64,000 nucleotides of DNA, from assembly GCA_040954595.2 (NCBI GenBank), contig CM082577.2, positions 13,957,903-14,021,902 of the forward strand, read 5' to 3'. The position numbers were made by a program, and so were the translations under genes. The notes under the pieces were generated by a model. It did no database searches, was not told the origin of the DNA, and saw only the letters and a list, made by a program, of their open reading frames with translations. The DNA is from Balanoglossus misakiensis (Eukaryota > Animalia > Hemichordata). Positions 5,191 to 52,557 of the stretch are shown here, one piece after another. Positions within the stretch are counted from its first letter, which is position 1. The number at the start of each line of letters is the position of its first letter.

Positions 5191-6358
5191 CAAGACAAGA
5201 AATTAAAGGTATACAGTCACCTCCAATTTACATATGCCGATTATATGGCTGAAATGGCATATTGAAGCGTTTAAAGAACATATTGTGTAGACCATGAGCC
5301 AGTAGGGGTTTACCTCCCCCCCCCGGGGGAATTTTTGAGACAATGTTTTTCTGAAAGCCTATCATATACTGAGTAAAATTCACTTTGTTTGCCATCTGGG
5401 CACCGGGGCGTTTTCGAGTTATTGGCTTCTAAATTATATTGGGTAACGTATGTAGAAAAGCCTAAAAGTGCATATAAATTGACGTAGGGGGGTAAATTAG
5501 TCTTGTAAAATACTGTCTCTCTGAATGTATACCTAGAACAACAGGGAAGTGTTTGGTATCAAAAGAAAGCTTAATAAACAAGCTTTCCATTAATTACAAA
5601 ATTAAAGTGATATGACAAATCATGACATCATAGTGACGTCATAAGTCAAAATACCCTTACGAAAATGGTGTTCTGTTCACCTATAATTTGTATAAATGTG
5701 GAAGAACGGGGTGGAGGTGGGAAAGACGACGTGACCTGGCTCAAGCAGAGAACTGAATGAATGAATGAATGAATGGGGAAACAAAGGACGGCCAGTCTGA
5801 CGCTAAGGGCCGTGTGCACAGGCCAAGCTGATTGGTCAGAAACGAAGCAGTAAAGGTCAGCACCAGCGGCGCTGATTGGTCGAGGAAATGGAGGTGGGGC
5901 TAGTGAAGACCACCTCGGTGTGTTCACAAAAAACATCTGTGACACAACACAGATTTTACTTTGTGAAACACACCACGCTGGATTGAGATAGAAGTAAGGC
6001 TTTTAATACCCGAACAAGAAACTCGCTTAACAAAACTTAATAAATTACAGAGAAAAACACAAGTGTCAATAAATGAACAATAAAACTAAAATACACTAGT
6101 CTAGCTATTCAAATAAAAAACGCTAATCTAAAATTGGGAGGGGGCCCCTTCAGTCAAGCGGTCGAACCTGGCCCTGTGGGTGGATCCATCCTGACAGGCC
6201 GAAATGTGAGGGAGGTTGTGCACTTCCCGAGAGATGGGGGTCAGGATGAAATCCAAGGCCCAAAACGAAGGAAGAATGACTGAAGTTGACCCCCAAAATA
6301 AAGGGAAGTGGAAAAGAGGAAATGGGGTGAGATGTTGGAAATGCTGGGAGTGGGATCC

Positions 6359-7052
6359 TGGGGGACGGGTCGACCGTGCGAGCCCAGGTGGGAGCGTGGA
6401 ACGAATGAGACAATGGAAAGATGTCACCCAAGGGATCATAACATGATGCGGCTTGGGGGGGAGGGGGGTCCTGGGGGACGGGTCGACCGTGCGAGCCCAG
6501 GTGGAAACAGGTGGAATGAATGAGACAATGGAAAGATGTCGCCCAAGGGATCATAAAATGATGCGGCTTGGGGGGGAGGGGGTCCTGGGGGACGGGTCGA
6601 CCGTGCGAGCCCAGGTGGGAGCGTGGAACGAATGAGACAATGGAAAAATGTCACCCAAGGGATCATAAAATGATGCGGCTTGGGGGGGGAGGGGGTCCTG
6701 GGGGACGGGTCGACCGTGCGAGCCCAGGTGGGAGCGTGGAACGAATGAGCCCAAGGGATCATAAAATGATGCGGCTTGGGGGGGAGGGGGTCCTGGGGGA
6801 CGGGTCGACCGTGCGAGCCCAGGTGGGAGCGTGGAACGAATGAGACAATGGAAAGGTGTCACCCAAGGGATCATAACATGATGCGGCTTGGGGGGGAGGG
6901 GGGTCCTGGGGGACGGGTCGACCGTGCGAGCCCAGGTGGAAACAAGTGGAACGAATGAGACAATGGAAAGATGTCGCCCAAGGGATCATAAAATGATGCG
7001 GCTTGGGTGGGTGTGGTTCTGGGGGACGGGTCGACCGTACGAGCCCAGGTGG
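6359..7052. repeat. 113-bp GC-rich tandem array (6 units plus a partial) in the Ngaro-like element
   Basis: Repeated GGGGGACGGGTCGACCGTGCGAGCCCAGGTGG...CCCAAGGGATCATAAAATGATGCGGCTTGGGGGGG; reverse complement of 50388-51081. Confidence 0.95.
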
Positions 7053-7089
7053 CATGTGGTAAAACAAGAAAAAGGAGGTAAACTTATCA

Positions 7090-7372
7090 GAAGGCAAGCG
7101 CGAGAAGAAACACTCTCGAATGACTGGCAAGCACATGAAAAGCATGACGCAAGGAGGTAACGGAGGTTCTAAAAACAACTGGTAACAGTCACTAGACCAT
7201 CTACCTAAGTACTGAATTAGGTGATCGGGGATGCGAGACGAAGCAGCCGTGGAAAGAAACACTCTCGAATGACTGGCAAGCACAGGAAAAGCATGACGCA
7301 AGGAGGTAACGGAGGTTCTAAAAACAACTGGTAACAGTCACTAGACCATCTACCTAAGTACTGAATTAGGTG
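7090..7372 (-). pseudogene. Tyrosine recombinase C-terminal remnant, tandemly duplicated (149-bp period)
   Basis: Translates TAASSRIPDHLIQYLGRWSSDCYQLF, the LGRWxSxxY motif with the catalytic Tyr region typical of DIRS/Ngaro YRs. Confidence 0.75.
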
Positions 7373-8616
7373 GGTCGCTGTTTGCCCGAGCAATTGCCCT
7401 GGGCTTTGCTGTGGTCGCCGGAGAAGCAGATGGAACAGCAATGGGCGAAGGAACAGTTATCTTTTTTACAACCCGTGGGCGAATTGAAATTATTGCAGAG
7501 TTCTTTATCCTGATGGAAAACGCGGGGACGTCCCTGCCGGTCCTGTGATGGCGGTTGCGGTGGTGCGGAGATGGAGTTAACCGATTTCCTGCTGCCCGGA
7601 GCGAGTTGCGGACATATCTCGGTAGCGTGGGCTACACTTCCGCACAGGTTGCACAGCACTGCTCGCATGCCGGAGAAAATAGAACAATATAAAGTAGTGT
7701 CCCGGCGAGACCAATCCACTTTTATGTTATGGTTTTGCAGCAAAGCCGCGGCCCTAGCGGAAAATGCACGATGGTACTCATAAAAGGCCAAGCCACTAAA
7801 ACGACGCGACATGTCGACTAAATCTCGTTGGTATGAGTCCAGTTCTTCACGGCGATTCGGATAAGCCTCGCACATAACATTTTTATAAACCGAAAAGGCT
7901 AGAATGAATTCTTGGATTGTAAGCGAGCGATGAACTCGAGTGTCGTGTAAAGGTCGCAGCGACAGGGCCTCGTCGCCGATAACAATGTGACGCTGGCTAT
8001 CGTTGAAGCTGTACCCCGGAATGAGCAGGCATGCCAAATTGACGTCCTTACCTGCGAGAATATCTCGACGAAGGGAGGGTGATACCAGTTCGACGTGCGG
8101 TAAATTTTCCGAGGAGATACCGCGAGAACGGAGCAGGTCATTGGTAGCGCCAGAATGGTTGTTGTTGTTAGTGGCCGAGCCGCGGCCGCCATCTTGGAAA
8201 GCGTTGGTGTGTACGTTTTGCTCCATAGGCGGATGTGACGTCACCGGCGATGACGTCATGGGTGCGTTGTTGCTGAACCCTGGATTTTGCTGTTCCAAAA
8301 CTAAGCGCGTCAGGTTGTTGACAGAGTCTTGCAGAGATGTAAACATGGAAGTAGTTACATAATTGTTTTGCTGCTCTTGCCTACTGCCTTGGGGGACGTC
8401 GGAAAATTCAGGAGAGGAACGACGATCGGCTGGAACTTCGTTGTTGTAGCCCTGAACAGAAGTCGCACAGTTCTCAGTGACCAGTCTATTCAGATCGGTG
8501 GTACTCGGCGACGCAGACACGGCATCCGGTGTCGCTGAAGAACGGGATTGAGCTCGGGTAGTCGGTCTAACGTACGGCTGAGCTGTTGGGACTCGTGATC
8601 GACGTCTGGCGGGCAT
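7366..8616 (-). CDS. Gag-like protein (416 aa) of the Ngaro/DIRS-like retroelement
   Basis: First ATG gives MPARRRSR. Conserved-looking core LTIQEFILAFSVYKNVMC...FYEYHRAFSARAA; CCHC knuckle CNLCGSVAHATEICP; C3H/CCHC finger CNNFNSPTGCKKDNCSFAHCCSICFSGDH. Confidence 0.85.
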   Translation of the reverse strand: MPARRRSRVPTAQPYVRPTTRAQSRSSATPDAVSASPSTTDLNRLVTENCATSVQGYNNEVPADRRSSPEFSDVPQGSRQEQQNNYVTTSMFTSLQDSVNNLTRLVLEQQNPGFSNNAPMTSSPVTSHPPMEQNVHTNAFQDGGRGSATNNNNHSGATNDLLRSRGISSENLPHVELVSPSLRRDILAGKDVNLACLLIPGYSFNDSQRHIVIGDEALSLRPLHDTRVHRSLTIQEFILAFSVYKNVMCEAYPNRREELDSYQRDLVDMSRRFSGLAFYEYHRAFSARAAALLQNHNIKVDWSRRDTTLYCSIFSGMRAVLCNLCGSVAHATEICPQLAPGSRKSVNSISAPPQPPSQDRQGRPRVFHQDKELCNNFNSPTGCKKDNCSFAHCCSICFSGDHSKAQGNCSGKQRPT

Positions 8617-9199
8617 TTTTCTTCGGTTAGAACACGTAACGACGAAGAGTGAAAACACAGGTTGAAATGGAGGAGTTACGTAGTAAATAAAGACGACGTG
8701 ACCTGGCTCAAGCAGAGAACTGAATGAATGAATGAATGAATGGGGAAACAAAGGACGGCCAGTCTGACGCTAAGGGCCGTGTGCACAGGCCAAGCTGATT
8801 GGTCAGAAACGAAGCAGTAAAGGTCAGCACCAACGGCGCTGATTGGGCGAAATGGAGGTGGGGCTAGTGAAGACCACCTCGGTGTGTTCACAAAAAACAT
8901 CTGTGACACAACACAGATTTTACTAAATGTGAGGTTTTGCAAAACACGTCTCTGAGCAATTGTACTGATGAAAACTGTGATGTGTTTGGTATCAACAGAA
9001 AGCTGATTGAGTAAAGTATCTAATTATTGCAAAATATTGATATAATAATCAATTACGTCATCATTACGTCATACTTCCAAGTACCCTAACCAATTAGTGA
9101 CTATGATGACAAGTTATTACCCTAGGAGATAGGTGCCTTTAAATAAAAAAATTGGTAAGGAAGGTTTGTGAAGTCCATTCTATGTAAAAAATGGTGCTG

Positions 9200-11700
9200 A
9201 TTCCAAAAAAAGGCAGTCTTATTGACCCCACCCAAGACAAAATTGCCATTTTGGCACTTTTTAACCCAAAAAAGGTCATTTTTAGAAAACACTAAAAACA
9301 CACTGTTTTCGTCACATTCGAAGATCTGATGACATATGATATGCCTATTCTATGTAAAATTTGGTTGATATTACGAAAAAAGCAGTCTAACTGACCCCAA
9401 ACGAGACAGAATTGCCTTTTTGACCATTTTTTGCCCAAAAACGTCATTTTTAGACAAAACTTAAAACACACTCTTCTCTTCATATTGATTGATTTGATGA
9501 TATATGGAAAGTCAATTCTATGTGTAAATTGGTGACTATAAAACATAAAGCAGTCTTTTTGACCCCAATCAATACAAAAATGCCATTTTTGGCCACATTT
9601 TTGAGGTCAAATAAGGTCATTTTTACAAAAAAAACTAAAAACAAACTGTTTTCTTCATATTCAGAGATCATGTGATATAATATAATTTCTGATTTTGTAT
9701 TCAGAACGAAGAGGATACATGTTAACAATCTATCCGGAGCTGGTATAGATGTACTTAAAAAAATTATACCATGTTGGCATGTATAACCGACTTATAGTAT
9801 ACAGTGTGAATACATGGATCGTCTCGTTTTATTGTTGAGTTCCATTTTAGGCTAAATGTGCCTTTCAATATCATCAATTCAACTGATATCATATGGTATG
9901 ACATTTTAAATATGCAAATATAACATCAAAACTCAAAAGGCAAAAACACCAATTATTTTGTTTTCTGAAACAGACAATTGTTGACTAGAAGATGGCTTAG
10001 TGGCAATTTTGTATTGAGTGGGGTCTTAATAAGACTGTTGCGTTGGTATCAGCATATTTTTTGCAAAAAATGGACTTTCCATTCATAATCAAACATTTAA
10101 ATACGAAGAAAACAGCTTGTTTTCATTTTTTCTTGAAATGACCTTTTTGACCAAAAATGGCCAAAATGACAATTTTGTAGGGCTGAAAAGAATTTTTTTT
10201 TTGGAATCGGCTCCCATTCAACAAAAATGGACCTTCTCCGTACATCATAAGATCTGAAAATAAAGAAAGAAGTTTTCAAACAGTTACCTTTTTTGAGCAA
10301 AGTGGCCAAAATGGCATTTTTTCCCTCTGTGGAGTCAGTAAGAGTGCTTTTTTGGAAAAATCGCTACTTTTAAGATAGAATGGACTTTTATTTATTATTA
10401 GATCACCAAAGGGAAACAAATAGCATGTTTTTAGTATATTCTAAAAATGACCCTTTTTGGGCAAAAAGTATTTTCATCTTCATTGAGATCAATAAGATTG
10501 CTTTTTCTAGAGTCAACAGCAATTTTTCAATAAATGGACTTTTCATACATGATCAAATTTCCAAATATAAAGAAAAACGTTTGCTTATTTCTTAAAATGG
10601 CCTTTTTGGGCAAAAACTTGCCAAAAAACGCACTTTAATCTTGAGTGGCGCCAATAAACCTACTTTTTTGAATACCTACCAAATTTTACACAAGGTGGGT
10701 ATACAATACATTATCAGATCTCCGAAAGTGAAGAAAATATATAAGTTTTGAGTGTTTTCTAAAAATGACATTTTTGGGGCAAAAAGTGGCAAAAATGGCA
10801 CATTTGCCTTGAGTGGGGGTTAATAAGGCTGCTATTTCTGGAATCAGAACTATTTTACATAGCATAAACTTTTCATATATCACATGATCTCTGAATATGA
10901 AGAAAACAATTTGTTTTTAGTTTTTTTGTAAAAATGACCTTTTTTTACCTCAAAAATATGGCCAAAAATGGCATTTTTTTGTATTGATTGGGGTCAAAAA
11001 GACTGCTTTATGTTTTATAGTCACCATTTTACGCATAGAATTGACTTTCCATATATCATCAAATCAATCAATATGAAGAGAAGAGTGTGTTTTAAGTTTT
11101 GTCTAAAAATGACGTTTTTGGGCAAAAATGGTCAAAAAGGCAATTCTGTCTCGTTTGGGGTCAGTCAGACTGCTTTTTTCGTAATATCAACCAAATTTTA
11201 CATAGAATAGGCTTATCATATGTCATCAGATCTTCGAATGTGATGAAAACAGTGTGTTTTTAGTGTTTTCTAAAAATGACCTTTTTTGGGTTAAAAAGTG
11301 CCAAAACGGCAATTTTGTCTTAGGTGGGGTCAGTTAGACTGCTTTTTTCGTAATATCAACCAAATTTTACATAGAATAGGCATATCATATGTCATCAGAT
11401 CTTCGAATGTGACGAAAACAGTGTGTTTTTAGTGTTTTCTAAAAATGACCTTTTTTGGGTTAAAAAGTGCCAAAATGGCAATTTTGTCTTGGGTGGGGTC
11501 AGTTAGACTGCTTTTTTCGTAATATCAACCAAATTTTACATAGAATAGGCATATCATATGTCATCAGATCTTCGAATGTGACGAAAACAGTGTGCTTTTA
11601 GTGTTTTCTAAAAATGACCTTTTTTTGGGTTAAAAAGTGCCAAAATGGCAATTTTGTCTTGGGTGGGGTCAATAAGACTGCCTTTTTTGGAATCAGCACC
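9200..11700. repeat. About 170-bp subterminal tandem repeats in both arms of the Academ-like element (copy 1)
   Basis: Unit ...GACCCCACCCAAGACAAAATTGCCATTTTGGCAC...; about 3 units in the short arm and about 11 inverted units in the long arm, degrading inwards. Confidence 0.85.
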
Positions 11701-14700
11701 ATTTTTTACATAGAATGGACTTCACAAACCTTCCTTACCAATTTTTTTATTTAAAGGCACCTATCTCCTAGGGTAATAACTTGTCATCATAGTCACTAAT
11801 TGGTTAGGGTACTTGGAAGTATGACGTAATGATGACGTAATTGATTATTATATCAATATTTTGCAATAATTAGATACTTTACTCAATCAGCTTTCTGTTG
11901 ATACCAAACACATCACAGTTTTCATCAGTACAATTGCTCAGAGACGTGTTTTGCAAAACCTCACATTTATACAAATTATAGGTGAACAGAACACCATTTT
12001 CGTAAGGGTATTTTGACTTATGACGTCACTATGATGTCATGATTTGTCAAATCACTTTAATTTTGTAATTAATGGAAAGCTTGTTTATTAAGCTTTCTTT
12101 TGATACCAAACACTTCCCTGTTGTTCTAGGTATACATTCAGAGAGACAGTATTTTACAAGACTAATTTACCCCCCTACGTCAATTTATATGCACTTTTAG
12201 GCTTTTCTACATACGTTACCCAATATAATTTAGAAGCCAATAACTCGAAAACGCCCCGGTGCCCAGATGGCAAACAAAGTGAATTTTACTCAGTATATGA
12301 TAGGCTTTCAGAAAAACATTGTCTCAAAAATTCCCCCGGGGGGGGGAGGTAAACCCCTACTGGCTCATGGTCTAGTGGTGCTCTTTTTTTCGCGTGTGCC
12401 ACCCACTGAAAATCTGTGATTGGCTGGATCTCAATTTGCCATTGTGACTATAGTTAATTTACCAAATGTGACTGTATACCTTCAAGTTCAGCTTAGAAGT
12501 GAAGAAACCACAGGATTGATGTTGCTTTTTTCATGATTTTTAGTTGTTTTATATAGTTCAAGAATTTTGTCACTTATTTGTGTCAGAATAGATAATAGAG
12601 GGGAGAAGAAAACCACATGTTTGTTGTTGTTGCTGTTTGTTTAGTTTTTTTTTATTGTCAATGAATTTTAGGATTTATTTTTATCATAATACAATGTAGA
12701 TTGTAATTCAAAAGAGAGAGAGCAAGTTATTAGTTCAGTACCATATGCCTCAGCATAATTTAGTTTCAGTACACCAGAAAGTCTCCAAGTTCTACTGTAT
12801 TTCTAATAATTTACCACATTTTGGCCTCATTCAAATTTTCTGCAATCATGTTTATGTTTGTAAGTTAAAGCAACATTATCCATTCTAAGCGAATTATTTG
12901 AATGAGTGTCAATAATGTCACTTGACAAGTTTGTTAATACTGTATCAAATAATTCAGTAAGTCAGCCTGAAGATCAGTACATTTTTTTCACCCATAGCCC
13001 GTTTGCAACAAGTGAATTACACAGCGCAGAGCAGAGCAGTATTGCGTATTTTTTCATTGTCACGTCTCATGTGAGTCCACTTATCTTCAGGAGAATGCCA
13101 TTTCAGCCAGACCTGTGTGTAATAGCAATATTAACATATTAACATGCACGGTCACTTACTGTAATAACTAAAATAGGCTGGAATGGCACAAGCAACTGCT
13201 GGAGAAGTTTACTTCTAGTGATAAGTTTTCACTTTCTGCAATGCCAATTTTGGTATTTGAAGTGAAATGTATTGTATGTATTGTATATTGTATCTATATA
13301 TGTGCATATGCATGCATGTCATGCCTGTATGTCCATCCACATCAGAAACTTGAAAACCAACCAGGCATATCACCTTGATATTTGGTGTGCAGATGCAGGC
13401 CCGGCTGTAGAAGGGATTTTTTTTTTCAAATTGAGTTGTCATTGCCCAAATTATGGAAATCAGGTGGAAAATTATGAAATTGGTCAAAACTCAACAATGA
13501 CTACTTAAGGAAAATTGCTTTGAAAATTGGCATACATGTAGCATATGTGAATCACATACAGTCCTGAATGTTCTGAGGTGATTTCATGATTTTTTTTGTC
13601 TATTTTCACATTATTGGATTTCTCATCAGAAGCATAGGGCAAGGTATGAATTTAGGCAGAATAGTCCATTCAATCGATTGTTGATGTAAACTTCCTTACC
13701 GCTCACCAGTTGTTATCATTGAACAGGTGGTGAAAAGCTTTCTTACCCCTTAGTTTGTTTTCTGTGCAAGACATGTACTATCCTATCATGTACCATGACT
13801 CTTTATTGAATAGGCAGGTCATAAATACATATTAAATTTAACATATTAAATATGACTTCTATCAAACCAATACTACAAGGGCTTGTGTCTGAAGCCCTTG
13901 TACCAGTGTTACTGTGATTAAATTTACTTTCCCTTCTTGCTAAGTGGATAACATGACACTAAAGTGCCATACAAAATGGAGTCCTGCATCACAAATGCCC
14001 AAACTGATTGTGATGTATGGTACATTGTTAGTACACATCTTCCCATAGTTGATCCAGCATGAACTCATTTTGCAAGAAACTTTGTGGTTATGACCTGAAA
14101 CCATACAAAAGTGGTGATCTGGTCGGGGGTAAGAGAAGTCCTCTAATGGGGTCAGAAATGAGTAGGTACTAAGATATGGAGTCGGTAACCTATTCAGACA
14201 AATGAAGTTTCAGTGGCCTAGCTGTCATACCAGTACATCCCCAAGTTAAAGGCCAGAGTCTTAATGGGACATCATGACGGCTACCTTCATGTCATTTCCA
14301 TATCGCATGTTTCTGGTCGATAAACATCCCAGTGTTTGAACTGTTCAAGATGAACCACGCATCCAAACTAAAATTTTACGATTAGCATATACTCTCTCCA
14401 GTCAAAACTAGTTCAAATTAAAAGAAATATATAAATTTTGAGCCAACTTCAAACATACCCCTAGTCATGTCCTCTTCCCAATTTGAACATTTTGCTAGAC
14501 TTTGCTAAAGAAAAGGGACATAATATCAAAAAAAAGTTTTTTTTTAACCCAAAAATGCCACCATTTCCAGGGATCAATAATATATGCAACGCGAACAAAA
14601 GTTCAAAAACTCAGCTTCCAGAATATATATGGTGTATGGGGGTTTTAAAGTTGTCTTTGATGAGAAATAGGCCTCTGAAAAAGTCTCGACGGTTTCATGC

Positions 14701-14951
14701 AATGCCACCTTAATGTCCTTGGGTGATCTAAATGTAAGGGTTCTCAACAACAAGAGACGTATGAAGAGATTGAAAGCCCCATGAGCGACACATTCTAAAC
14801 CATTAAGCTATATTGCTTGTATCAAATTGTCGACTCTCAGCGATGCATACCAAGATACTTGTGTACTTTTTTGTATGGAGGCCGATTAAACAGGTGTGGC
14901 ATACATTTGATACCCTATACCCCTTGTTGAAATTGCAAAATACAGTCACAA

Positions 14952-15922
14952 TAGTCCTGTTTCATAAGTCAGGTCCATGACATATGTACCGACATCTGTG
15001 ATTGGTCCATCTGGTAATCTTAGGTCCACTTGCGGCACGCTGATTGGAGGGACCTTATGTGTTAGGTCTTATCATTATGTATTATTCACTAGACCTTGTA
15101 GGTTAGGTCTTATTACTATGTATTATTCACTTTACAGCTCCTTGATTGGTTAATGTGTAGGTCTGGTCCTCCAGCGTTCACTGCCTCATTATGCAGGACC
15201 TTGTAGGTTAGGTCTTATTAATATGTATTTATTCAATTTTCAGCTCCCTGATTGGTTAATGTGTAGGTCTCCAGGTTTCACTGCCTCGTTATGCAAAGTC
15301 TTTTGTACTTTCTGAATACTGTTGTCGTATTCTGTCTGGCATGCTACCTGCGCGTGGTCGAAGCTCGCGATCGATACCAGTGTATAAAGAAAGGCACTCA
15401 TATAATGATTGGATTTCACCTTTTCCTTCACACTATTCATGGCATTTTATGTGAAACTGTGAACTAGATACTCGAAATAAAAATTGCCAGGAGAAATTTC
15501 GCATTTATTTCCAGTGGCGGTTTGTTGAAATGGGCTAGTGTTTTGTTACGTAATGCCTTTCAGCGCATCACTTCGTGTAACATCTGGCCATACAGACTGA
15601 CACGTTAACCAATCAGGGAGCTGTATGGTGAATAAATACATATTAATAAGACCTAACCTACAAGGTCCTGAATAATGAGGCAGTGAACACTGGAGGACCA
15701 GACCTACACATTAACCAATCAGGGAGCTGTAAAGTGAATAATGCATAGTAATAAGACCTAACCTACAAGGTCTGGTGAATAATACATAGTAATAAGACCT
15801 AACCTACAAGGTCCCTCCAATCAGCGAGCCGCAAGTGGACCTTAGAGAAGCGGATAAACCAATCAGAACATGTAATACGTGTGCATAGGACCTGTAATGT
15901 AGGTCATTTTGAAACAGGACTA
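14952..15922. mobile_element. Foldback MITE with TAG...CTA ends and internal inverted sub-repeats
   Basis: TAGTCCTGTTTCA ... TGAAACAGGACTA. GACCTTGTAGGTTAGGTCTTATTA repeats at 15050-15240 are mirrored at 15630-15815. No clean TSD. Confidence 0.7.
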
Positions 15923-16129
15923 ATTGGACATCGATGAGATGTTCATGTCTGTCAGTAAGGTAATTTAAATGATGAATCCCAGTTGAAAAGTAAAATCATA
16001 AAAAATAAACCAAAAAGTGGTAGCTCTTGGGCTTTTAAAGACTGTGTATTATAGAATCAAACATTTTGAGATCTTTTATTTGGCAAACAGACTCAGTATT
16101 GGTGAATGCTGTGTTGATTTTAAAGCATA

Positions 16130-16570: not shown

Positions 16571-16579
16571 AATCTTTAC

Positions 16580-26757: not shown

Positions 26758-26846
<89 letters not shown>

Positions 26847-26880
26847 CCACCACCACCACCACCATTACTACTTCGATTAC

Positions 26881-26913
<33 letters not shown>

Positions 26914-41900: not shown

Positions 41901-44900
41901 AATGTGATTGGGACATTGTTCATAGATAACATGGGCGATCCATCTCCGAAATCAACTTCCACTGTCATATCGTCAGGTGGCTGTACTCCAGAATCGAGAG
42001 TGACCATGAAAAACGCTTCATCGGGACTGCGAATTGTGTCGTTCAATTTGGCGAACTGAAGCCCTTGAACCGGATAAATGATTATTACCTTTCTGCTTAT
42101 GGTTTCAACGTCGATGAGGTTTTCAGCGCTACCAGTTATAGAATACTCGCCAATTTCAGTGTATGTATGCTCGACGGTAAACTCCCTTGCTTTGTTCTTG
42201 TACACAGACTCGACACCTCCGTCGCCGAAGTCTAACTCAAACGTGATCTTAGATCCAGCGCTCACTTTCAGCTGAAACGTCATCGTCATGTTAATACCTC
42301 CAGTGACATTCTCAGCGTATCCTGCCGTGTCTAACACCATACGCAAGTCGCGAATTGGAATGACCACGGCAATCTCAAAGACGGCCGATTCGTTGTTCAT
42401 CTGGTTTTTGACCATGACGCTGCAGGTGTAGTTTCCCGATTCCGCGTACTGGTAGTCGATTGTCGGGAAGCGCCACTCCATGGCGCCCGTGTCGTCGCCG
42501 AAATCAAAATAATACAGGACGTGATCGCCGCTTGTCTTGGTCGCCGTTAGAGTGATGGAATTGGCCCTAGAGTCCAGCTCTACTGAAAGTGAGACTCCAC
42601 TAACAGGTTCTGTGACTATCTGTCTTTCATGCACTGAGATGAGGTGAGTTGTGGAGAAGATGGAATTTTTCTCACTGCCGCCACAAAATGTGTTGGTGTC
42701 GTTCGCGCACTGGATATTACATTCAGTGTCACTCAGCTGAGTATTTGACCCATAGTCGTTGCCACAGAAACACTGACTGCCTTCCCTGAGCGCGGCAAAT
42801 TTATAATTGTCGTATCGGCAACTATGGCGGCACGTTTCAGGGGTGATAGCCTGTATGTAGGTCGGTGAAATGGAAAATTCAGGAAATGCGATGTTTTCCG
42901 CGTAACACCCAATATAGTGAGTCTCAACGTAGCCTTCAATTGAGGAGAAAAGACGCTGTTGTTAGTTCACAAGAGAAATATTATGGAGTTTGTTAGGGAA
43001 ACAAAAACTATTGTTATAGAAACGGGTTAAAACATGTATCCTCTAGTCGAACCATAGAAATCGGAGGGTCTGGCCAACGTTTATACGATGGAAAGCTTTG
43101 TGAATCAAGTAAGTCATATATTTTCGCGACACGATCCCATATGGCTGGCAGATTGTAATAGCGGTATATGGTGGTTTGCATATAAATATGGGGTTTGAAA
43201 ACAATCGTGATGAGGGCCTTTTATCTGTCTGCGTGAAAAAGGCGTCGAATACTATTTAGAACGTCTCTTTTTTTACCTAATAGGTCAGGTGGATTAAAGT
43301 GTCGAGAATTATAATAATAATACGTAAAAAAACTAAATCATGTTTGTTTTATCATCAATAAAATACATTTAACTCAATTAGTATTAATTTTGACATAAAA
43401 ATTAAAGAAAACGTCTGTTCGAACAGGAAAAAAACATCTACTTCTTCTACACTTACCTCTAATGTATTCATGTGTAATTGTATCTATGTCGATTAGATCG
43501 TCCCAGAACTTGAGATCGTCCAAGAGGAACTTGCCATATGTTGCTGTAAATCGGTCATTAGCCTGGCCAACATAGAAATCGGGATAGGGCTCTACTGCAT
43601 CAAGAGGTTCCAAGTAAGGTCTGGTCGTCCCCTCCACATCGTAACCGGCACATGCGCCGTCGATGTACACGTGGATACCCGTGACTATGGACCAGGTGAA
43701 CGTCACGTGACTCCATATGTTGATTTCCAACTCGAACACCAGGGACCATTTACTGGATTCAAACGCTGCCCCAACCTCGAAGACATTTTGAGGTCCCGCG
43801 GAGCTGTTGGCGTTCAAACGAAAATAAAAGCCGTTAGAGGAGCATCGATGGCCCCCTCGCGACAAAATATACAGATCGCTGTCTTTACCACTGATGTTCA
43901 GGGATGGAGACATCCACGTGGATACCGTCAGGCCGCTGTCACAGTAAGACATGTCTTTGATGCACCAATCGCTATCGTGTTTGAGGGCGATCTTCTGTCC
44001 GTTGCCGTCAAGATGGACAGCCTCGTCCACAACACCAGGCACGATGTCTTCTTGATAAAGTTTGTATGCTGTGCCAATGTTGGTGTCTGGTGTGTAACCT
44101 TCAATGGTTCTGTTGTCCGCCGACAGAGAGTCCATCGTCCAATGGAAAAACTCAACATTAATCTCATCTGACAAGAAAGAAAAAGGATGGAAATTTGTTT
44201 TCAGTTATAGTGAGGTTGTACATGAAATTTAGGAGTGTGTTTTGATTCGTCGTCTGTTCTCGGTGTGGCAAATTTTATTGGCGTCTGTCTTTTATTTTGA
44301 AATTATTTTTTTACAAAGCTTGGCTGCAATGCCACGTTGAACCCATGGGGGAGAAGTGTTACTAGCGAGAGAGGTTTACTCCAGTTTTACATCCTAACAT
44401 TACTGTATGAATCGTGAATCTCTAAAATTCCATTCAACATCATGCCTATACGCTGTACGCTATATTTTATTTCAGTACACTGAACTAATACTGGTTCAAC
44501 ACAACACAACACAACACAACACAACACAACACAACACAACACACTACAACACAACACAACACAACACAACACAACACAACACAACACAACACAACACAAC
44601 ACAACACAACACAACACAACCCCTCACAACACAACACAACACAACACACCACAACACTACAACACACTACAACACAACACAACACAACACAACACACCAC
44701 ACCACACCACACCACAACACACCACAACACAACACAACACAACACAACACAACACAACACAACGCAACGCAACGCAACACAACACAACACAACACAACAC
44801 AACCACTCTTGCTAATAGATCATGACAATAGTCTCACCATAGACATATGCAAAAAGGTAAATATCAGTCTCTGACACAGTTTCCTCCACAAATTTAATGT

Positions 44901-47900
44901 CGTCAATCAGAAAGCTTGGATTGGTTGAACCAGTGAACGGATCGCGTCCAATGATCAACGACGTAAACCCGTCGCTCGCCAGATTTCCATTTCCGCCATC
45001 TTGTCGGTCCAAAGTACTCCAATGGATACCATTCACATAAACTATGACATTCACGGTGTCCCACATAGACCATGAGCCAGTAGGGGTTTACCTCCCCCCC
45101 CCGGGGGAATTTTTGAGACAATGTTTTTCTGAAAGCCTATCATATACTGAGTAAAATTCACTTTGTTTGCCATCTGGGCACCGGGGCGTTTTCGAGTTAT
45201 TGGCTTCTAAATTATATTGGGTAACGTATGTAGAAAAGCCTAAAAGTGCATATAAATTGACGTAGGGGGGTAAATTAGTCTTGTAAAATACTGTCTCTCT
45301 GAATGTATACCTAGAACAACAGGGAAGTGTTTGGTATCAAAAGAAAGCTTAATAAACAAGCTTTCCATTAATTACAAAATTAAAGTGATTTGACAAATCA
45401 TGACATCATAGTGACGTCATAAGTCAAAATACCCTTACGAAAATGGTGTTCTGTTCACCTATAATTTGTATAAATGTGAGGTTTTGCAAAACACGTCTCT
45501 GAGCAATTGTACTGATGAAAACTGTGATGTGTTTGGTATCAACAGAAAGCTGATTGAGTAAAGTATCTAATTATTGCAAAATATTGATATAATAATCAAT
45601 TACGTCATCATTACGTCATACTTCCAAGTACCCTAACCAATTAGTGACTATGATGACAAGTTATTACCCTAGGAGATAGGTGCCTTTAAATAAAAAAATT
45701 GGTAAGGAAGGTTTGTGAAGTCCATTCTATGTAAAAAATGGTGCTGATTCCAAAAAAGGCAGTCTTATTGACCCCACCCAAGACAAAATTGCCATTTTGG
45801 CACTTTTTAACCCAAAAAAAGGTCATTTTTAGAAAACACTAAAAGCACACTGTTTTCGTCACATTCGAAGATCTGATGACATATGATATGCCTATTCTAT
45901 GTAAAATTTGGTTGATATTACGAAAAAAGCAGTCTAACTGACCCCACCCAAGACAAAATTGCCATTTTGGCACTTTTTAACCCAAAAAAGGTCATTTTTA
46001 GAAAACACTAAAAACACACTGTTTTCGTCACATTCGAAGATCTGATGACATATGATATGCCTATTCTATGTAAAATTTGGTTGATATTACGAAAAAAGCA
46101 GTCTAACTGACCCCACCTAAGACAAAATTGCCGTTTTGGCACTTTTTAACCCAAAAAAGGTCATTTTTAGAAAACACTAAAAACACACTGTTTTCATCAC
46201 ATTCGAAGATCTGATGACATATGATAAGCCTATTCTATGTAAAATTTGGTTGATATTACGAAAAAAGCAGTCTGACTGACCCCAAACGAGACAGAATTGC
46301 CTTTTTGACCATTTTTGCCCAAAAACGTCATTTTTAGACAAAACTTAAAACACACTCTTCTCTTCATATTGATTGATTTGATGATATATGGAAAGTCAAT
46401 TCTATGCGTAAAATGGTGACTATAAAACATAAAGCAGTCTTTTTGACCCCAATCAATACAAAAAAATGCCATTTTTGGCCATATTTTTGAGGTAAAAAAA
46501 GGTCATTTTTACAAAAAAACTAAAAACAAATTGTTTTCTTCATATTCAGAGATCATGTGATATATGAAAAGTTTATGCTATGTAAAATAGTTCTGATTCC
46601 AGAAATAGCAGCCTTATTAACCCCCACTCAAGGCAAATGTGCCATTTTTGCCACTTTTTGCCCCAAAAATGTCATTTTTAGAAAACACTCAAAACTTATA
46701 TATTTTCTTCACTTTCGGAGATCTGATAATGTATTGTATACCCACCTTGTGTAAAATTTGGTAGGTATTCAAAAAAGTAGGTTTATTGGCGCCACTCAAG
46801 ATTAAAGTGCGTTTTTTGGCAAGTTTTTGCCCAAAAAGGCCATTTTAAGAAATAAGCAAACGTTTTTCTTTATATTTGGAAATTTGATCATGTATGAAAA
46901 GTCCATTTATTGAAAAATTGCTGTTGACTCTAGAAAAAGCAATCTTATTGATCTCAATGAAGATGAAAATACTTTTTGCCCAAAAAGGGTCATTTTTAGA
47001 ATATACTAAAAACATGCTATTTGTTTCCCTTTGGTGATCTAATAATAAATAAAAGTCCATTCTATCTTAAAAGTAGCGATTTTTCCAAAAAAGCACTCTT
47101 ACTGACTCCACAGAGGGAAAAAATGCCATTTTGGCCACTTTGCTCAAAAAAGGTAACTGTTTGAAAACTTCTTTCTTTATTTTCAGATCTTATGATGTAC
47201 GGAGAAGGTCCATTTTTGTTGAATGGGAGCCGATTCCAAAAAAAAAATTCTTTTCAGCCCTACAAAATTGTCATTTTGGCCATTTTTGGTCAAAAAGGTC
47301 ATTTCAAGAAAAAATGAAAACAAGCTGTTTTCTTCGTATTTAAATGTTTGATTATGAATGGAAAGTCCATTTTTTGCAAAAAATATGCTGATACCAACGC
47401 AACAGTCTTATTAAGACCCCACTCAATACAAAATTGCCACTAAGCCATCTTCTAGTCAACAATTGTCTGTTTCAGAAAACAAAATAATTGGTGTTTTTGC
47501 CTTTTGAGTTTTGATGTTATATTTGCATATTTAAAATGTCATACCATATGATATCAGTTGAATTGATGATATTGAAAGGCACATTTAGCCTAAAATGGAA
47601 CTCAACAATAAAACGAGACGATCCATGTATTCACACTGTATACTATAAGTCGGTTATACATGCCAACATGGTATAATTTTTTTAAGTACATCTATACCAG
47701 CTCCGGATAGATTGTTAACATGTATCCTCTTCGTTCTGAATACAAAATCAGAAATTATATTATATCACATGATCTCTGAATATGAAGAAAACAGTTTGTT
47801 TTTAGTTTTTTTTGTAAAAATGACCTTATTTGACCTCAAAAATGTGGCCAAAAATGGCATTTTTGTATTGATTGGGGTCAAAAAGACTGCTTTATGTTTT

Positions 47901-50900
47901 ATAGTCACCAATTTACACATAGAATTGACTTTCCATATATCATCAAATCAATCAATATGAAGAGAAGAGTGTGTTTTAAGTTTTGTCTAAAAATGACGTT
48001 TTTGGGCAAAAAATGGTCAAAAAGGCAATTCTGTCTCGTTTGGGGTCAGTTAGACTGCTTTTTTCGTAATATCAACCAAATTTTACATAGAATAGGCATA
48101 TCATATGTCATCAGATCTTCGAATGTGACGAAAACAGTGTGTTTTTAGTGTTTTCTAAAAATGACCTTTTTTGGGTTAAAAAGTGCCAAAATGGCAATTT
48201 TGTCTTGGGTGGGGTCAATAAGACTGCCTTTTTTTGGAATCAGCACCATTTTTTACATAGAATGGACTTCACAAACCTTCCTTACCAATTTTTTTATTTA
48301 AAGGCACCTATCTCCTAGGGTAATAACTTGTCATCATAGTCACTAATTGGTTAGGGTACTTGGAAGTATGACGTAATGATGACGTAATTGATTATTATAT
48401 CAATATTTTGCAATAATTAGATACTTTACTCAATCAGCTTTCTGTTGATACCAAACACATCACAGTTTTCATCAGTACAATTGCTCAGAGACGTGTTTTG
48501 CAAAACCTCACATTTAGTAAAATCTGTGTTGTGTCACAGATGTTTTTTGTGAACACACCGAGGTGGTCTTCACTAGCCCCACCTCCATTTCGCCCAATCA
48601 GCGCCGTTGGTGCTGACCTTTACTGCTTCGTTTCTGACCAATCAGCTTGGCCTGTGCACACGGCCCTTAGCGTCAGACTGGCCGTCCTTTGTTTCCCCAT
48701 TCATTCATTCATTCATTCAGTTCTCTGCTTGAGCCAGGTCACGTCGTCTTTATTTACTACGTAACTCCTCCATTTCAACCTGTGTTTTCACTCTTCGTCG
48801 TTACGTGTTCTAACCGAAGAAAAATGCCCGCCAGACGTCGATCACGAGTCCCAACAGCTCAGCCGTACGTTAGACCGACTACCCGAGCTCAATCCCGTTC
48901 TTCAGCGACACCGGATGCCGTGTCTGCGTCGCCGAGTACCACCGATCTGAATAGACTGGTCACTGAGAACTGTGCGACTTCTGTTCAGGGCTACAACAAC
49001 GAAGTTCCAGCCGATCGTCGTTCCTCTCCTGAATTTTCCGACGTCCCCCAAGGCAGTAGGCAAGAGCAGCAAAACAATTATGTAACTACTTCCATGTTTA
49101 CATCTCTGCAAGACTCTGTCAACAACCTGACGCGCTTAGTTTTGGAACAGCAAAATCCAGGGTTCAGCAACAACGCACCCATGACGTCATCGCCGGTGAC
49201 GTCACATCCGCCTATGGAGCAAAACGTACACACCAACGCTTTCCAAGATGGCGGCCGCGGCTCGGCCACTAACAACAACAACCATTCTGGCGCTACCAAT
49301 GACCTGCTCCGTTCTCGCGGTATCTCCTCGGAAAATTTACCGCACGTCGAACTGGTATCACCCTCCCTTCGTCGAGATATTCTCGCAGGTAAGGACGTCA
49401 ATTTGGCATGCCTGCTCATTCCGGGGTACAGCTTCAACGATAGCCAGCGTCACATTGTTATCGGCGACGAGGCCCTGTCGCTGCGACCTTTACACGACAC
49501 TCGAGTTCATCGCTCGCTTACAATCCAAGAATTCATTCTAGCCTTTTCGGTTTATAAAAATGTTATGTGCGAGGCTTATCCGAATCGCCGTGAAGAACTG
49601 GACTCATACCAACGAGATTTAGTCGACATGTCGCGTCGTTTTAGTGGCTTGGCCTTTTATGAGTACCATCGTGCATTTTCCGCTAGGGCCGCGGCTTTGC
49701 TGCAAAACCATAACATAAAAGTGGATTGGTCTCGCCGGGACACTACTTTATATTGTTCTATTTTCTCCGGCATGCGAGCAGTGCTGTGCAACCTGTGCGG
49801 AAGTGTAGCCCACGCTACCGAGATATGTCCGCAACTCGCTCCGGGCAGCAGGAAATCGGTTAACTCCATCTCCGCACCACCGCAACCGCCATCACAGGAC
49901 CGGCAGGGACGTCCCCGCGTTTTCCATCAGGATAAAGAACTCTGCAATAATTTCAATTCGCCCACGGGTTGTAAAAAAGATAACTGTTCCTTCGCCCATT
50001 GCTGTTCCATCTGCTTCTCCGGCGACCACAGCAAAGCCCAGGGCAATTGCTCGGGCAAACAGCGACCCACCTAATTCAGTACTTAGGTAGATGGTCTAGT
50101 GACTGTTACCAGTTGTTTTTAGAACCTCCGTTACCTCCTTGCGTCATGCTTTTCCTGTGCTTGCCAGTCATTCGAGAGTGTTTCTTTCCACGGCTGCTTC
50201 GTCTCGCATCCCCGATCACCTAATTCAGTACTTAGGTAGATGGTCTAGTGACTGTTACCAGTTGTTTTTAGAACCTCCGTTACCTCCTTGCGTCATGCTT
50301 TTCATGTGCTTGCCAGTCATTCGAGAGTGTTTCTTCTCGCGCTTGCCTTCTGATAAGTTTACCTCCTTTTTCTTGTTTTACCACATGCCACCTGGGCTCG
50401 TACGGTCGACCCGTCCCCCAGAACCACACCCACCCAAGCCGCATCATTTTATGATCCCTTGGGCGACATCTTTCCATTGTCTCATTCGTTCCACTTGTTT
50501 CCACCTGGGCTCGCACGGTCGACCCGTCCCCCAGGACCCCCCTCCCCCCCAAGCCGCATCATGTTATGATCCCTTGGGTGACACCTTTCCATTGTCTCAT
50601 TCGTTCCACGCTCCCACCTGGGCTCGCACGGTCGACCCGTCCCCCAGGACCCCCTCCCCCCCAAGCCGCATCATTTTATGATCCCTTGGGCTCATTCGTT
50701 CCACGCTCCCACCTGGGCTCGCACGGTCGACCCGTCCCCCAGGACCCCCTCCCCCCCCAAGCCGCATCATTTTATGATCCCTTGGGTGACATTTTTCCAT
50801 TGTCTCATTCGTTCCACGCTCCCACCTGGGCTCGCACGGTCGACCCGTCCCCCAGGACCCCCTCCCCCCCAAGCCGCATCATTTTATGATCCCTTGGGCG

Positions 50901-52557
50901 ACATCTTTCCATTGTCTCATTCATTCCACCTGTTTCCACCTGGGCTCGCACGGTCGACCCGTCCCCCAGGACCCCCCTCCCCCCCAAGCCGCATCATGTT
51001 ATGATCCCTTGGGTGACATCTTTCCATTGTCTCATTCGTTCCACGCTCCCACCTGGGCTCGCACGGTCGACCCGTCCCCCAGGATCCCACTCCCAGCATT
51101 TCCAACATCTCACCCCATTTCCTCTTTTCCACTTCCCTTTATTTTGGGGGTCAACTTCAGTCATTCTTCCTTCGTTTTGGGCCTTGGATTTCATCCTGAC
51201 CCCCATCTCTCGGGAAGTGCACAACCTCCCTCACATTTCGGCCTGTCAGGATGGATCCACCCACAGGGCCAGGTTCGACCGCTTGACTGAAGGGGCCCCC
51301 TCCCAATTTTAGATTAGCGTTTTTTATTTGAATAGCTAGACTAGTGTATTTTAGTTTTATTGTTCATTTATTGACACTTGTGTTTTTCTCTGTAATTTAT
51401 TAAGTTTTGTTAAGCGAGTTTCTTGTTCGGGTATTAAAAGCCTTACTTCTATCTCAATCCAGCGTGGTGTGTTTCACAAAGTAAAATCTGTGTTGTGTCA
51501 CAGATGTTTTTTGTGAACACACCGAGGTGGTCTTCACTAGCCCCACCTCCATTTCCTCGACCAATCAGCGCCGCTGGTGCTGACCTTTACTGCTTCGTTT
51601 CTGACCAATCAGCTTGGCCTGTGCACACGGCCCTTAGCGTCAGACTGGCCGTCCTTTGTTTCCCCATTCATTCATTCATTCATTCAGTTCTCTGCTTGAG
51701 CCAGGTCACGTCGTCTTTCCCACCTCCACCCCGTTCTTCCACATTTATACAAATTATAGGTGAACAGAACACCATTTTCGTAAGGGTATTTTGACTTATG
51801 ACGTCACTATGATGTCATGATTTGTCATATCACTTTAATTTTGTAATTAATGGAAAGCTTGTTTATTAAGCTTTCTTTTGATACCAAACACTTCCCTGTT
51901 GTTCTAGGTATACATTCAGAGAGACAGTATTTTACAAGACTAATTTACCCCCCTACGTCAATTTATATGCACTTTTAGGCTTTTCTACATACGTTACCCA
52001 ATATAATTTAGAAGCCAATAACTCGAAAACGCCCCGGTGCCCAGATGGCAAACAAAGTGAATTTTACTCAGTATATGATAGGCTTTCAGAAAAACATTGT
52101 CTCAAAAATTCCCCCGGGGGGGGGAGGTAAACCCCTACTGGCTCATGGTCTAACATGAAGGTTATATGCCGCCAGTCGTAGGCACTGGGCGCTTTGGCGC
52201 GAAACGACCATTCCCCGTCGTCTGCCGACAAAAGTGTGAATTCAACAAAAACGCCGTCATACTCGAACCGGAAACCTCTTGACGTGGACGGGTTATCGTA
52301 ATTAGATATGATCACACAATCAGTCTTTGAATGTCGCTGGAACCAAAACGACAGTGTAAAGCCTGTCGGACAGCGTAGGGTGCTTCCGATACAAGCCGTG
52401 TTGTCGAAGTCTGCGGAGAGCCACGCCCCAGTTGCATCCAGAAGTCCCCCTTGCGATTTGCGAGCTGCAGCCAGCTGAACATATCCATGCATCTCCATTG
52501 CAGCGTCACCAACCATGTAGCCGCCAGAAATCTCATCCATTGGCAAATGGAGACGTT
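22105..52557 (-). CDS. Polycystin-1 family gene (PKD1-like / PKD1L2-like / REJ receptor), 24 traced exons, about 3,275 aa; this allele is disrupted by a transposon in the first traced exon
   Basis: Exons in transcript order: 52557-44838 (minus the TE), 44167-43457, 42933-39861, 39026-38851, 38280-38110, 37427-37144, 37043-36882, 36419-36360, 35492-35364, 34867-34777, 34311-34118, 33139-32894, 32057-31577, 30842-30730, 29786-29559, 29060-28890, 28588-28428, 27705-26991, 26588-26447, 26039-25813, 24779-24608, 24366-23668, 23219-22659, 22334-22105. All GT-AG with compatible phases. The signal-peptide/start exon was not located. Confidence 0.92.
22659..23219 (-). CDS. Polycystin cation-channel TM exon
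   Basis: KFVNFQHLAYWD...KFLKLLRFNKRM...LMNMFLTILN, typical of PKD channel S4-S6. Confidence 0.9.
23668..24366 (-). CDS. Polycystin TOP domain / channel exon
   Basis: YGGGGYVATLG...WYDKYTRAIFVELTVYNANVNLF...YFKSFWNCLE. Confidence 0.9.
26761..26912. repeat. Compound microsatellite (CAT)n-(CAC)n-(GAT)n, intronic
   Basis: Directly visible; about 28 CAT, 6 CAC, 11 GAT. Confidence 0.97.
26991..27705 (-). CDS. Polycystin exon: end of PLAT and TM2-TM5
   Basis: FICDKWLAVEYDDG...HLWFSVLSRPSKSHFTRVQRLTCC...LPHWCLYIGW...QWLIS. Confidence 0.92.
28428..29060 (-). CDS. Polycystin PLAT/LH2 domain (two exons: 29060-28890, 28588-28428)
   Basis: YEIAVYTGMRRGAGTKSKV; LGPLAYLRIWHDDSG...SWYLSRI. Confidence 0.9.
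29559..30842 (-). CDS. GPS motif and TM1 (two exons: 30842-30730, 29786-29559)
   Basis: CLFWHESDEKWINDGCR|VG...THCLCSHL/TSFAADFFVPPN, with an intact HL/T autoproteolysis site. Confidence 0.9.
30986..31211. mobile_element. TTAA-flanked MITE (Kolobok-like), intronic
   Basis: TTAA-AAGGAAGCCGTCATCGC ... GCGACGACCGCTTCCCT-TTAA. Confidence 0.6.
33572..33919. mobile_element. TTAA-flanked palindromic MITE, intronic
   Basis: TTAA-AGGGA...CTCGCTGCCCTTTTTCCCATTAATTATGTTTGATACAAGAC is mirrored by GTCTTGTATCAAACATAATTAATGGAAAAAGGGCAGCGAG...TCCCT-TTAA; arms of about 130 bp. Confidence 0.8.
39861..42933 (-). CDS. Polycystin giant exon (3,073 nt): WSC domain, tandem PKD repeats, start of the REJ module
   Basis: YIGCY...CRHSC...GSQCFCGN...CNIQC...FCGG (WSC). 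Repeated DFGD/WYFGDG/WQFGDG/WDFNDG (PKD). REJ: PCNAPSV...LQFVWFCRR...GGCF. Confidence 0.93.
43457..44167 (-). CDS. Polycystin exon: concanavalin A/LamG-like domain 2
   Basis: AVHLDGNGQ...CDSGLTVSTWM...WSHVTFTWS..GIHVYIDG...FLLDDLKFWD. Confidence 0.85.
44497..44802. repeat. (CACAA)n pentanucleotide microsatellite, intronic
   Basis: Directly visible. Confidence 0.97.
44838..45065 (-). CDS. 3' half of the LamG-like domain 1 exon (downstream of the TE insertion)
   Basis: MWDTVNVIVYVNG...LIIGRD...FLIDDIKF; donor G|GTGAGA. Confidence 0.85.
45740..48240. repeat. About 170-bp subterminal repeats (copy 2)
   Basis: Unit starts near 45771, 45941, 46110, 46279, 46447, 46620, 46790 and onward; inverted units at 47760-48240. 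Confidence 0.85.
48516..48751 (+). promoter_or_regulatory. Direct repeat A1 with two CCAAT boxes; likely promoter of the gag transcript
   Basis: CCCAATCAGC and ACCAATCAGC plus (CATT)n, 70 nt upstream of the gag ATG; repeated at 51480-51718. Confidence 0.5.
48824..50074 (+). CDS. Gag-like protein (416 aa), identical translation to copy 1
   Basis: As for 7366-8616. Confidence 0.85.
   Translation: MPARRRSRVPTAQPYVRPTTRAQSRSSATPDAVSASPSTTDLNRLVTENCATSVQGYNNEVPADRRSSPEFSDVPQGSRQEQQNNYVTTSMFTSLQDSVNNLTRLVLEQQNPGFSNNAPMTSSPVTSHPPMEQNVHTNAFQDGGRGSATNNNNHSGATNDLLRSRGISSENLPHVELVSPSLRRDILAGKDVNLACLLIPGYSFNDSQRHIVIGDEALSLRPLHDTRVHRSLTIQEFILAFSVYKNVMCEAYPNRREELDSYQRDLVDMSRRFSGLAFYEYHRAFSARAAALLQNHNIKVDWSRRDTTLYCSIFSGMRAVLCNLCGSVAHATEICPQLAPGSRKSVNSISAPPQPPSQDRQGRPRVFHQDKELCNNFNSPTGCKKDNCSFAHCCSICFSGDHSKAQGNCSGKQRPT
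50068..50350 (+). pseudogene. Duplicated tyrosine recombinase C-terminal remnant
   Basis: HLIQYLGRWSSDCY at 50068 and 50217. Confidence 0.75.
50388..51081. repeat. 113-bp tandem array (copy 2)
   Basis: CCACCTGGGCTCG starts at 50388, 50501, 50614, 50709, 50822, 50936, 51049. Confidence 0.95.
52153..52557 (-). CDS. 5' half of the LamG-like domain 1 exon (upstream of the TE insertion)
   Basis: Acceptor ttttcatttcag|; ERLHLPMDE...CPTGFTLSFWF...DWRHITFM. Confidence 0.85.

What the first reader, a model, noticed from the sequence alone, without database searches (positions are those of the whole stretch)
5288..52152. Composite mobile unit: a transposase-less Academ-like foldback transposon carries an intact retroelement Gag gene and has just duplicated locally
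Seen: two 7,087-bp elements (5288-12374, 45066-52152) in inverted orientation with no net indel. Arm-specific variants are shared (e.g. GTGATATGAC vs GTGATTTGAC), but the 3-bp TSDs differ (GTG vs ACA), so these are two independent insertions. Each carries a 3.2-kb Ngaro/DIRS-type derivative whose only intact gene is gag. Known: Academ elements have TAG..CTA ends and short TSDs; Ngaro elements encode gag, RT/RNH and YR. Inference: neither partner can move itself, yet the chimera moved very recently using a transposase supplied in trans. A class I gene with its promoter is being spread by a class II vector, a possible route for gag amplification or domestication.
Basis: partly seen in the sequence, partly recalled or inferred. 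Interest (0 to 1): 0.85.

Follow-up and report, generated by a model that had tools for sequence, protein, structure and literature searches.

The report
DNA transposon carries retroelement gag passenger
Two identical 7-kb copies of a transposase-less DNA transposon each carry a crippled retrotransposon whose gag gene is still open, and one copy splits a coding exon of a host polycystin gene, so the unit likely jumped very recently with a borrowed enzyme: a tidy case of one mobile element riding in another, with no sign yet that the gag is useful.

Summary
Copies A (5288-12374) and B (45066-52152) are 7,087 bp, inverted, with 0 differences and different 3-bp target duplications (GTG, ACA). Read contigs indirectly suggest B is heterozygous. 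The vector has ~692-bp arms, TAG..CTA ends like curated Academ-1 families (13 of 15 nt) and no transposase. No partner transposase was found, so it is Academ-like only. The 3.2-kb cargo is a Ngaro derivative: A1, gag (416 aa), two YR tails, B1, A2. RT/RH, most of YR and B2 are gone. Reads show relatives with YR, B2 and other insertion sites. The gag-deletion form has roughly 3-4 haploid copies, against tens of transposon ends. Best reading: nested insertion, decay, then hitchhiking by trans-mobilised cut-and-paste. Gag amplification or domestication is unsupported, and expression was untestable. The scan's look-ups showed no earlier finding on look-alike DNA. New variant of a known kind.

The parts
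5288..12374 (.). Copy A of the composite element (7,087 bp), TSD GTG at 5285-5287 and 12375-12377
45066..52152 (.). Copy B, exact reverse complement of A, TSD ACA at 45063-45065 and 52153-52155
5288..5700 (+). Outer part of left arm (413 bp; 1 mismatch to right arm), starts TAG
8932..9210 (+). Inner part of left arm, resumes after the cargo; 279 bp, 0 mismatches to right arm
11683..12374 (-). Uninterrupted right arm (~692 bp), ends CTA
9171..9669 (+). Left array of ~168-bp tandem units (2.9 copies), inverted against the right array (foldback layout)
9959..11716 (-). Right array of ~169-bp units (6.7 copies by TRF at 10588-11716, degenerate units back to ~9959)
5701..8924 (-). Cargo in copy A: deleted Ngaro-like retrotransposon, 52% GC against 33-37% for the vector (copy B: 48516-51739, + strand)
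8689..8924 (-). Repeat A1 with two CCAAT boxes and a GC-box-like motif (candidate promoter, untested)
7366..8616 (-). gag ORF, 416 aa (copy B: 48824-50074, +); 48% identical over 99% to a Ptychodera flava protein
7105..7372 (-). Two tandem copies of the C-terminal tail of a tyrosine recombinase; 63% identical over 19 aa to the YR end in L014
6346..7052 (-). GC-rich ~113-bp tandem array of the cargo
5961..6259 (-). Repeat B1 (single copy per element; B2 absent from the window)
5722..5960 (-). Repeat A2 (2 substitutions and a 3-bp indel against A1)
5694..5700 (.). 7-bp sequence doubled at both cargo ends (also 8925-8931). The reads show it is also native to the Ngaro A2-B2 spacer, so it reads as microhomology rather than a TSD
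52153..52558 (-). 5' half of the split coding exon (laminin-G domain, Pfam positions 11-86) of the polycystin-1-like host gene
44830..45065 (-). 3' half of the split exon (Pfam positions 88-150)
5207..12481 (.). ~185-bp MITE (5207-5287 plus 12378-12481, 14-15-bp inverted ends, TTAA/TCAA flanks) split by copy A

Best explanation
This is a transposase-less, Academ-like foldback DNA transposon that holds a decayed Ngaro retrotransposon with an open gag frame, and the whole 7,087-bp unit likely moved very recently by cut-and-paste with a transposase supplied from elsewhere in the genome, giving two nearby copies, one of which splits a host polycystin exon. Shown: identity of the copies, the TSDs, the anatomy, the split exon and MITE, and relatives in the reads with YR, B2 and other insertion sites. 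Inferred order: (1) a Ngaro inserted by its recombinase into the left arm at position 413, since its 5' end starts at the first base of A1, near where other family insertions start; (2) an internal deletion removed RT/RH and most of YR, before or after step 1; (3) B2 was lost by a crossover at a 7-bp microhomology, possibly copied from the intact mirror arm, which would end any retrotransposition of the cargo; (4) the intact outer ends were cut by a trans-acting transposase, and copy number rose by gap repair or replication-coupled local hopping. Gag is most likely a passive passenger that has not had time to decay.
For: 0 of 7,087 differences and distinct TSDs. The empty site of B restores one laminin-G domain: Pfam positions 11-86 and 88-150, homologue residues 32-164 and 165-241. 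All 9 tblastn segments of the 1,775-aa homologue have 0 stops. The empty site of A restores a MITE. Exon contigs begin exactly at 52153 in both X1 and X2, as expected of a branch between filled and empty alleles (inference). One contig of the arm, identical over 108 bp, has depth 4,247 against 75-100 for unique DNA in X1. Joint 51746->51181 at depth 482 shows relatives with a spacer and B2, the spacer ending in the doubled 7-mer. A YR-coding contig (depth 234) and three other 5' flanks at 48512-48516 show free Ngaro copies. A gag relative in L014 is followed by overlapping RT and YR ORFs. 31 of 34 curated Academ-1 starts viewed begin TAG, and the nearest match ours at 13 of 15 nt; AcademX TSDs are 3-4 bp. 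A1 and A2 already differ at 3 places while the two composites differ at none, so the cargo is older than the last jump.
Against: No autonomous partner was found: no genome is held, and the metagenome and viral end searches gave only unpaired matches. Empty copies were not seen directly, because a loose end at the junction also fits the element's own right arm. The contigs across the insertion junctions were not among those listed (tables cut: 690 and 91 records not shown), so heterozygosity is indirect. Depth is not a copy number (tool caveat), and X1-X3 are one sample that may be the source of the assembly. The Repbase 11-nt rule is missed by one mismatch against the bivalve library.
Confidence: 0.8

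Rival explanations
1. The gag-only cargo belongs to a functional non-autonomous Ngaro lineage, or its gag is kept by selection (for example as a helper or inhibitor of the active Ngaro family), and the DNA transposon is now amplifying an expressed gene.
For: The deletion ends within a few codons of the gag stop and leaves an in-frame stop. A1 keeps two CCAAT boxes. Indels between the window's gag and family contigs are 6 and 3 bp, in frame. The deletion joint has depth 152 in X1 and 645 in X2, which leaves room for 1-2 copies beyond the two in the window.
Against: Only about 3-4 haploid copies (rough). Among 12 listed family variants in gag, 6 are silent and 6 change the amino acid: weak evidence, and it reflects the retrotransposing family rather than the captured copy. 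With no divergence between A and B, selection after capture cannot be seen. One copy knocks out a host exon.
Confidence: 0.1
2. The cargo was not a normal retrotransposon insertion but a fragment copied into the transposon by template switching during repair or replication (the FoSTeST or gap-filling route of Pack-TIRs), then moved.
For: 7-bp microhomology at the 3' junction; microhomology is common at Pack-TIR breakpoints (PMC8277862 passages); no vector sequence is lost at the site.
Against: The 5' junction falls at the first base of A1, within 4 nt of three other family insertion ends, which a random template switch would not predict.
Confidence: 0.15
3. One copy is an assembly artefact or a segmental duplicate, or the perfect identity comes from collapsed consensus.
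For: Perfect identity of long inverted repeats is a known assembly risk (general knowledge); no spanning long reads were examined.
Against: Identity stops at the element ends. Each copy has its own TSD, and each empty site restores an older structure. Both read sets break at 52153. Matching TSD pairs also show that the 32.7 kb between the copies is not inverted.
Confidence: 0.04

Closest known systems
Multicopy Pack-TIRs, e.g. Ssk-FB4 of Drosophila (PMC8277862; passages read)
   Same: A TIR or foldback element carries a near-complete gene with upstream sequence, has microhomology at a breakpoint, and makes further copies by transposition.
   Different: Pack-TIRs are defined there as carrying non-TE sequence; here the cargo is a retrotransposon remnant. 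Ssk-FB4 has protein and selection evidence; this has none.
Academ (AcademX / Academ-1) DNA transposons (PMC10045372 passage; library of PMC10294476, supplement file 24, first 400 nt of entries only)
   Same: TAG..CTA ends, 3-bp TSD; ends match Academ_M.phylippinarum_1 at 13 of 15 nt and resemble Academ_A.kagoshimensis_1.
   Different: No transposase; long foldback arms with 168-bp arrays; carries cargo.
Ngaro-like tyrosine-recombinase retrotransposons (PMC9210276, PMC6681497; passages read)
   Same: A1-gag-(YR tail)-B1-A2 order; gag family linked to RT and YR in L014; copies with lost repeats or broken ORFs are reported in Xenopus.
   Different: RT/RH, most of YR and B2 are missing; A1 and A2 are no longer identical; it moves only as a passenger (inferred).
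Ngaro inside EMALE virophage elements (PMC8547959, passages) and TEs hitchhiking on Starships (bioRxiv 10.1101/2025.06.18.660325, abstract and outline)
   Same: A retro- or other element nested in a larger mobile unit that could carry it.
   Different: Those vectors are large and encode their own enzymes, and movement of Ngaro with EMALEs was left open. Here a small non-autonomous vector has two identical loaded copies.

Membership tests
Academ (AcademX type), non-autonomous | 3-4-bp target site duplication | tested here: met
   2 of 2 copies have 3-bp TSDs; feature from PMC10045372
Academ (AcademX type), non-autonomous | TAG..CTA termini | tested here: met
   31 of 34 library starts viewed (of 100) begin TAG; 4 of 100 begin TAC
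Academ (AcademX type), non-autonomous | Repbase rule: first 11 nt match a member with at most 1 mismatch | tested here: inconclusive
   Rule. The three nearest bivalve families have 2 mismatches each. Only one bivalve library was available, searched by start motifs.
Academ (AcademX type), non-autonomous | Academ transposase in the element or in an autonomous partner with the same ends | not testable with these tools
   The element has none, as expected of a non-autonomous copy; no genome is held for a partner search
Ngaro-like (derivative) | Split direct repeats A1..B1 A2 B2 | tested here: not met
   The cargo has A1, B1, A2 but no B2; relatives in the reads have B2. It is a truncated derivative, not a complete member.
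Ngaro-like (derivative) | gag, RT/RH and YR ORFs | tested here: not met
   Only gag and two YR tails in the cargo. The gag family is linked to RT and YR in L014, and a YR contig joins the tail in the reads.
Ngaro-like (derivative) | No methyltransferase domain after RT/RH (against DIRS-like) | tested here: inconclusive
   No MT hit in the 555-aa RT ORF of relative L014, where RNase H gave no hit either; the window's own family RT was not available
Ngaro-like (derivative) | RT phylogeny separating Ngaro from PAT-like | not testable with these tools
   RT is deleted in the cargo and no genome is held
Pack-TIR (multicopy) | Captured internal sequence is non-TE | tested here: not met
   The cargo is retrotransposon-derived; definition
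Pack-TIR (multicopy) | Several copies with their own TSDs | tested here: met

The most novel reading that the evidence does not exclude
A gag-only Ngaro derivative, trimmed exactly to promoter plus gag, has traded its own retrotransposition for transport by an active Academ-like DNA transposon, and its expressed Gag is kept because it helps or blocks the live Ngaro family: a class I gene caught at the first step of amplification by a class II vector.
Probability: 0.08. Interest if true: 0.7.

Novelty: new variant of a known kind. Interest (0 to 1): 0.35.

Why it matters
It is clean sequence evidence that an Academ-like family is moving now in a likely acorn worm, that it tolerates a 3.2-kb insert inside one arm, and that it can break host genes (an early exon of a polycystin-1-like gene). 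That gives a ready donor and target for testing Academ transposition once the partner enzyme is found. It also shows a Ngaro remnant being moved by an unrelated element, a pairing I did not find described (searches, limited library). It would matter more only if the gag proves expressed and selected.

Tried and rejected
Whole-genome search: no genome held. End motif in metagenome contigs: 3 hits, all one locus, 23 nt only, no partner end within 4 mismatches; rejected as chance within another repeat (that the context is SINE-like is recalled). End motif in viral contigs: 10 hits, none with an inverted partner. Gag relatives in viral contigs: none confirmed. Pfam gave no family for gag or the YR-tail frame. 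The Atlas gave only unnamed clusters at 0.90-0.91. No RNA holder listed; this says nothing on expression. X3 held next to none of the words and was left out of the second laying. Reading the 7-8-bp doubling round the cargo as a TSD: rejected, because the reads show the 7-mer is native to the Ngaro spacer. Inversion between the copies: rejected, because the TSD pairs match. The AcademH paper (Kojima 2020) is not held; its TSD statement was taken from a citing passage. Supplement file 25 of PMC10294476 held no Academ. One passage of PMC4298943 was uninformative. Paper searches gave no statement of Academ terminal sequence in their listings. Earlier scan findings: no look-alike by sequence for the arm, gag or inner arm, none near, none by words.
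Full report
Observation. Copy A (5288-12374) and copy B (45066-52152) are 7,087 bp each, inverted, 32.7 kb apart, and differ at 0 of 7,087 positions. They begin TAG and end CTA, and are flanked by GTG/GTG and ACA/ACA. A random 3-mer pair matches with probability 0.018 here, about 3e-4 for both. Similarity stops at the ends, so this is not a segmental duplication.

Both insertion sites check out independently. Copy B lies in an early coding exon of a minus-strand gene with laminin-G, WSC, PKD, REJ and polycystin channel domains. The two halves match Pfam Laminin_G_3 positions 11-86 and 88-150 (both below the curated cut-off singly). They match residues 32-164 and 165-241 of Ptychodera flava polycystin-1-like P0077 (63% and 52%). 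All 9 tblastn segments of that 1,775-aa protein have no stop, so the part of the gene tested looks intact apart from the insertion; read-through into the element stops after 29 codons. Copy A splits a ~185-bp element with 14-15-bp inverted ends. The host is likely an acorn worm, from best hits.

Vector. With the cargo set aside, the left arm matches the right over about 692 bp with 1 mismatch, followed by inverted arrays of 168-169-bp units: a foldback layout. There is no transposase; the longest stop-free frame in 8932-12374 is 104 aa. AcademX makes 3-4-bp TSDs (PMC10045372, passage). In the curated bivalve library (PMC10294476, supplement file 24, entries cut at 400 nt), 31 of the first 34 of 100 Academ-1 entries start TAG. 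The nearest match our end at 13 of 15 nt, with 2 mismatches in the first 11, one more than the Repbase rule allows (PMC4455052, passage). I therefore call it Academ-like, about 80% likely Academ. No partner was found.

Cargo. On the gag strand the order is A1 (236 bp), gag (416 aa), two copies of a recombinase C-terminal tail, a 113-bp array, B1, A2, and 21 bp. Gag has 76 homologues among 3,437 candidates, the best 48% identical over 99%, and aligns through the terminal zinc finger. One relative with DNA context, L014, is followed by overlapping RT and integrase-family ORFs, and its YR end matches our tail. [quoted passage not shown] B2 is absent from the window.

Read contigs (3 runs listed, one sample, possibly the source of the assembly; tables were cut, with 690 and 91 records not shown; depth is only a rough guide). 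Unique DNA in X1 has depth 75-100. A 108-bp arm contig with no differences has 4,247, so tens of near-identical ends exist. A joint from 51746 back to 51181 (depth 482) shows relatives in which A2 is followed by a spacer and B2. The spacer contains the 7 bp doubled around our cargo, so the 3' junction is a microhomology crossover, not a TSD. A contig with upstream YR sequence (depth 234) and three other flanks at 48512-48516 show free Ngaro copies whose 5' ends fall at about the same place as ours. The contig across the gag/YR deletion has depth 152 in X1 and 645 in X2 (unique about 300), roughly 3-4 haploid copies, two of them in the window. One X2 contig leaves the window's sequence at the gag end, so the cargo's stop was probably made by the deletion, at a cost of about two residues by comparison with L014. 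In both runs the exon contig starts exactly at 52153. That is what a branch between a filled and an empty allele gives, so B is probably heterozygous; the junction contigs themselves were not listed. Empty vector copies were not seen directly.

Mechanism. Most likely (0.8): recombinase-mediated insertion of a Ngaro into one arm; loss of RT/RH/YR and of B2; then trans-mobilised cut-and-paste of the loaded element with local reinsertion. A1 and A2 differ at 3 places while the composites differ at none, so the last jump is younger than the cargo's decay. Which copy is the donor is unknown. Rivals are capture by template switching, a selected gag-only unit, and artefact (see the Rival explanations section). 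Against selection on the passenger: few copies; 6 silent and 6 amino-acid-changing variants among 12 listed; no divergence on which selection could show. For it: the deletion ends next to the gag stop, and family indels are in frame.

Comparison and novelty. It works like a multicopy Pack-TIR such as Ssk-FB4 (PMC8277862, passages) but fails that definition because the cargo is TE-derived. Nested Ngaro in virophage elements (PMC8547959, passages) and TEs on Starships (bioRxiv 10.1101/2025.06.18.660325, abstract) are precedents for riding inside another element. Gag-only non-autonomous LTR elements (TR-GAG) are recalled; the term appeared only in a search listing. Searches listed nothing that describes Ngaro carried by Academ, but the library is partial and the AcademH paper was not held. 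The scan's earlier notes hold no look-alike; one describes an Academ-related element elsewhere in this genome, an untested lead for the enzyme source. Verdict: real, recent, a new variant of a known kind; interest 0.35.

Noticed in passing
window 2118-5189 (-): Open 1,023-aa endonuclease + reverse transcriptase frame of a LINE (L2-like by recalled motifs). Repeat A2 of copy A points towards it on the same strand, about 0.5 kb upstream, and could lend it a promoter (speculation).
   Followed up: partly
window 5288-52152: The two inverted identical copies bracket 32.7 kb holding most of the polycystin gene, and the whole 46.9 kb is bounded by TAG..CTA: a substrate for inversion or for moving as one macro-element. 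No inversion in this haplotype (TSD pairs match).
   Followed up: partly
window ~22100-52560 (-): Large polycystin-1-like gene with two N-terminal laminin-G domains before WSC, PKD, REJ and channel domains; this allele is truncated by copy B.
   Followed up: partly
window 5207-5287 and 12378-12481: ~185-bp MITE with TTAA/TCAA flanks, Kolobok-like by recalled end features.
   Followed up: partly
window 14999-15865, 18620-19491, 33584-33901, 62901-63048: Other small inverted-repeat elements seen in the self-comparison.
   Followed up: no
window ~52575-52860: A high-copy repeat in the intron beside the split exon (summed depth 4,000-17,000 with many loose ends).
   Followed up: no
window 44497-44803: (CAACA)n satellite of about 61 units just past the split exon.
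   Followed up: no
L014 1-3590: A contig in a bacterial MAG record carries an animal-type Ngaro gag, RT and YR: likely host contamination.
   Followed up: partly
L004 4430-5666 and L008 2761-3997: Four direct copies of an 18-nt motif at 405-420-bp spacing in two viral contigs; unrelated to the finding.
   Followed up: no
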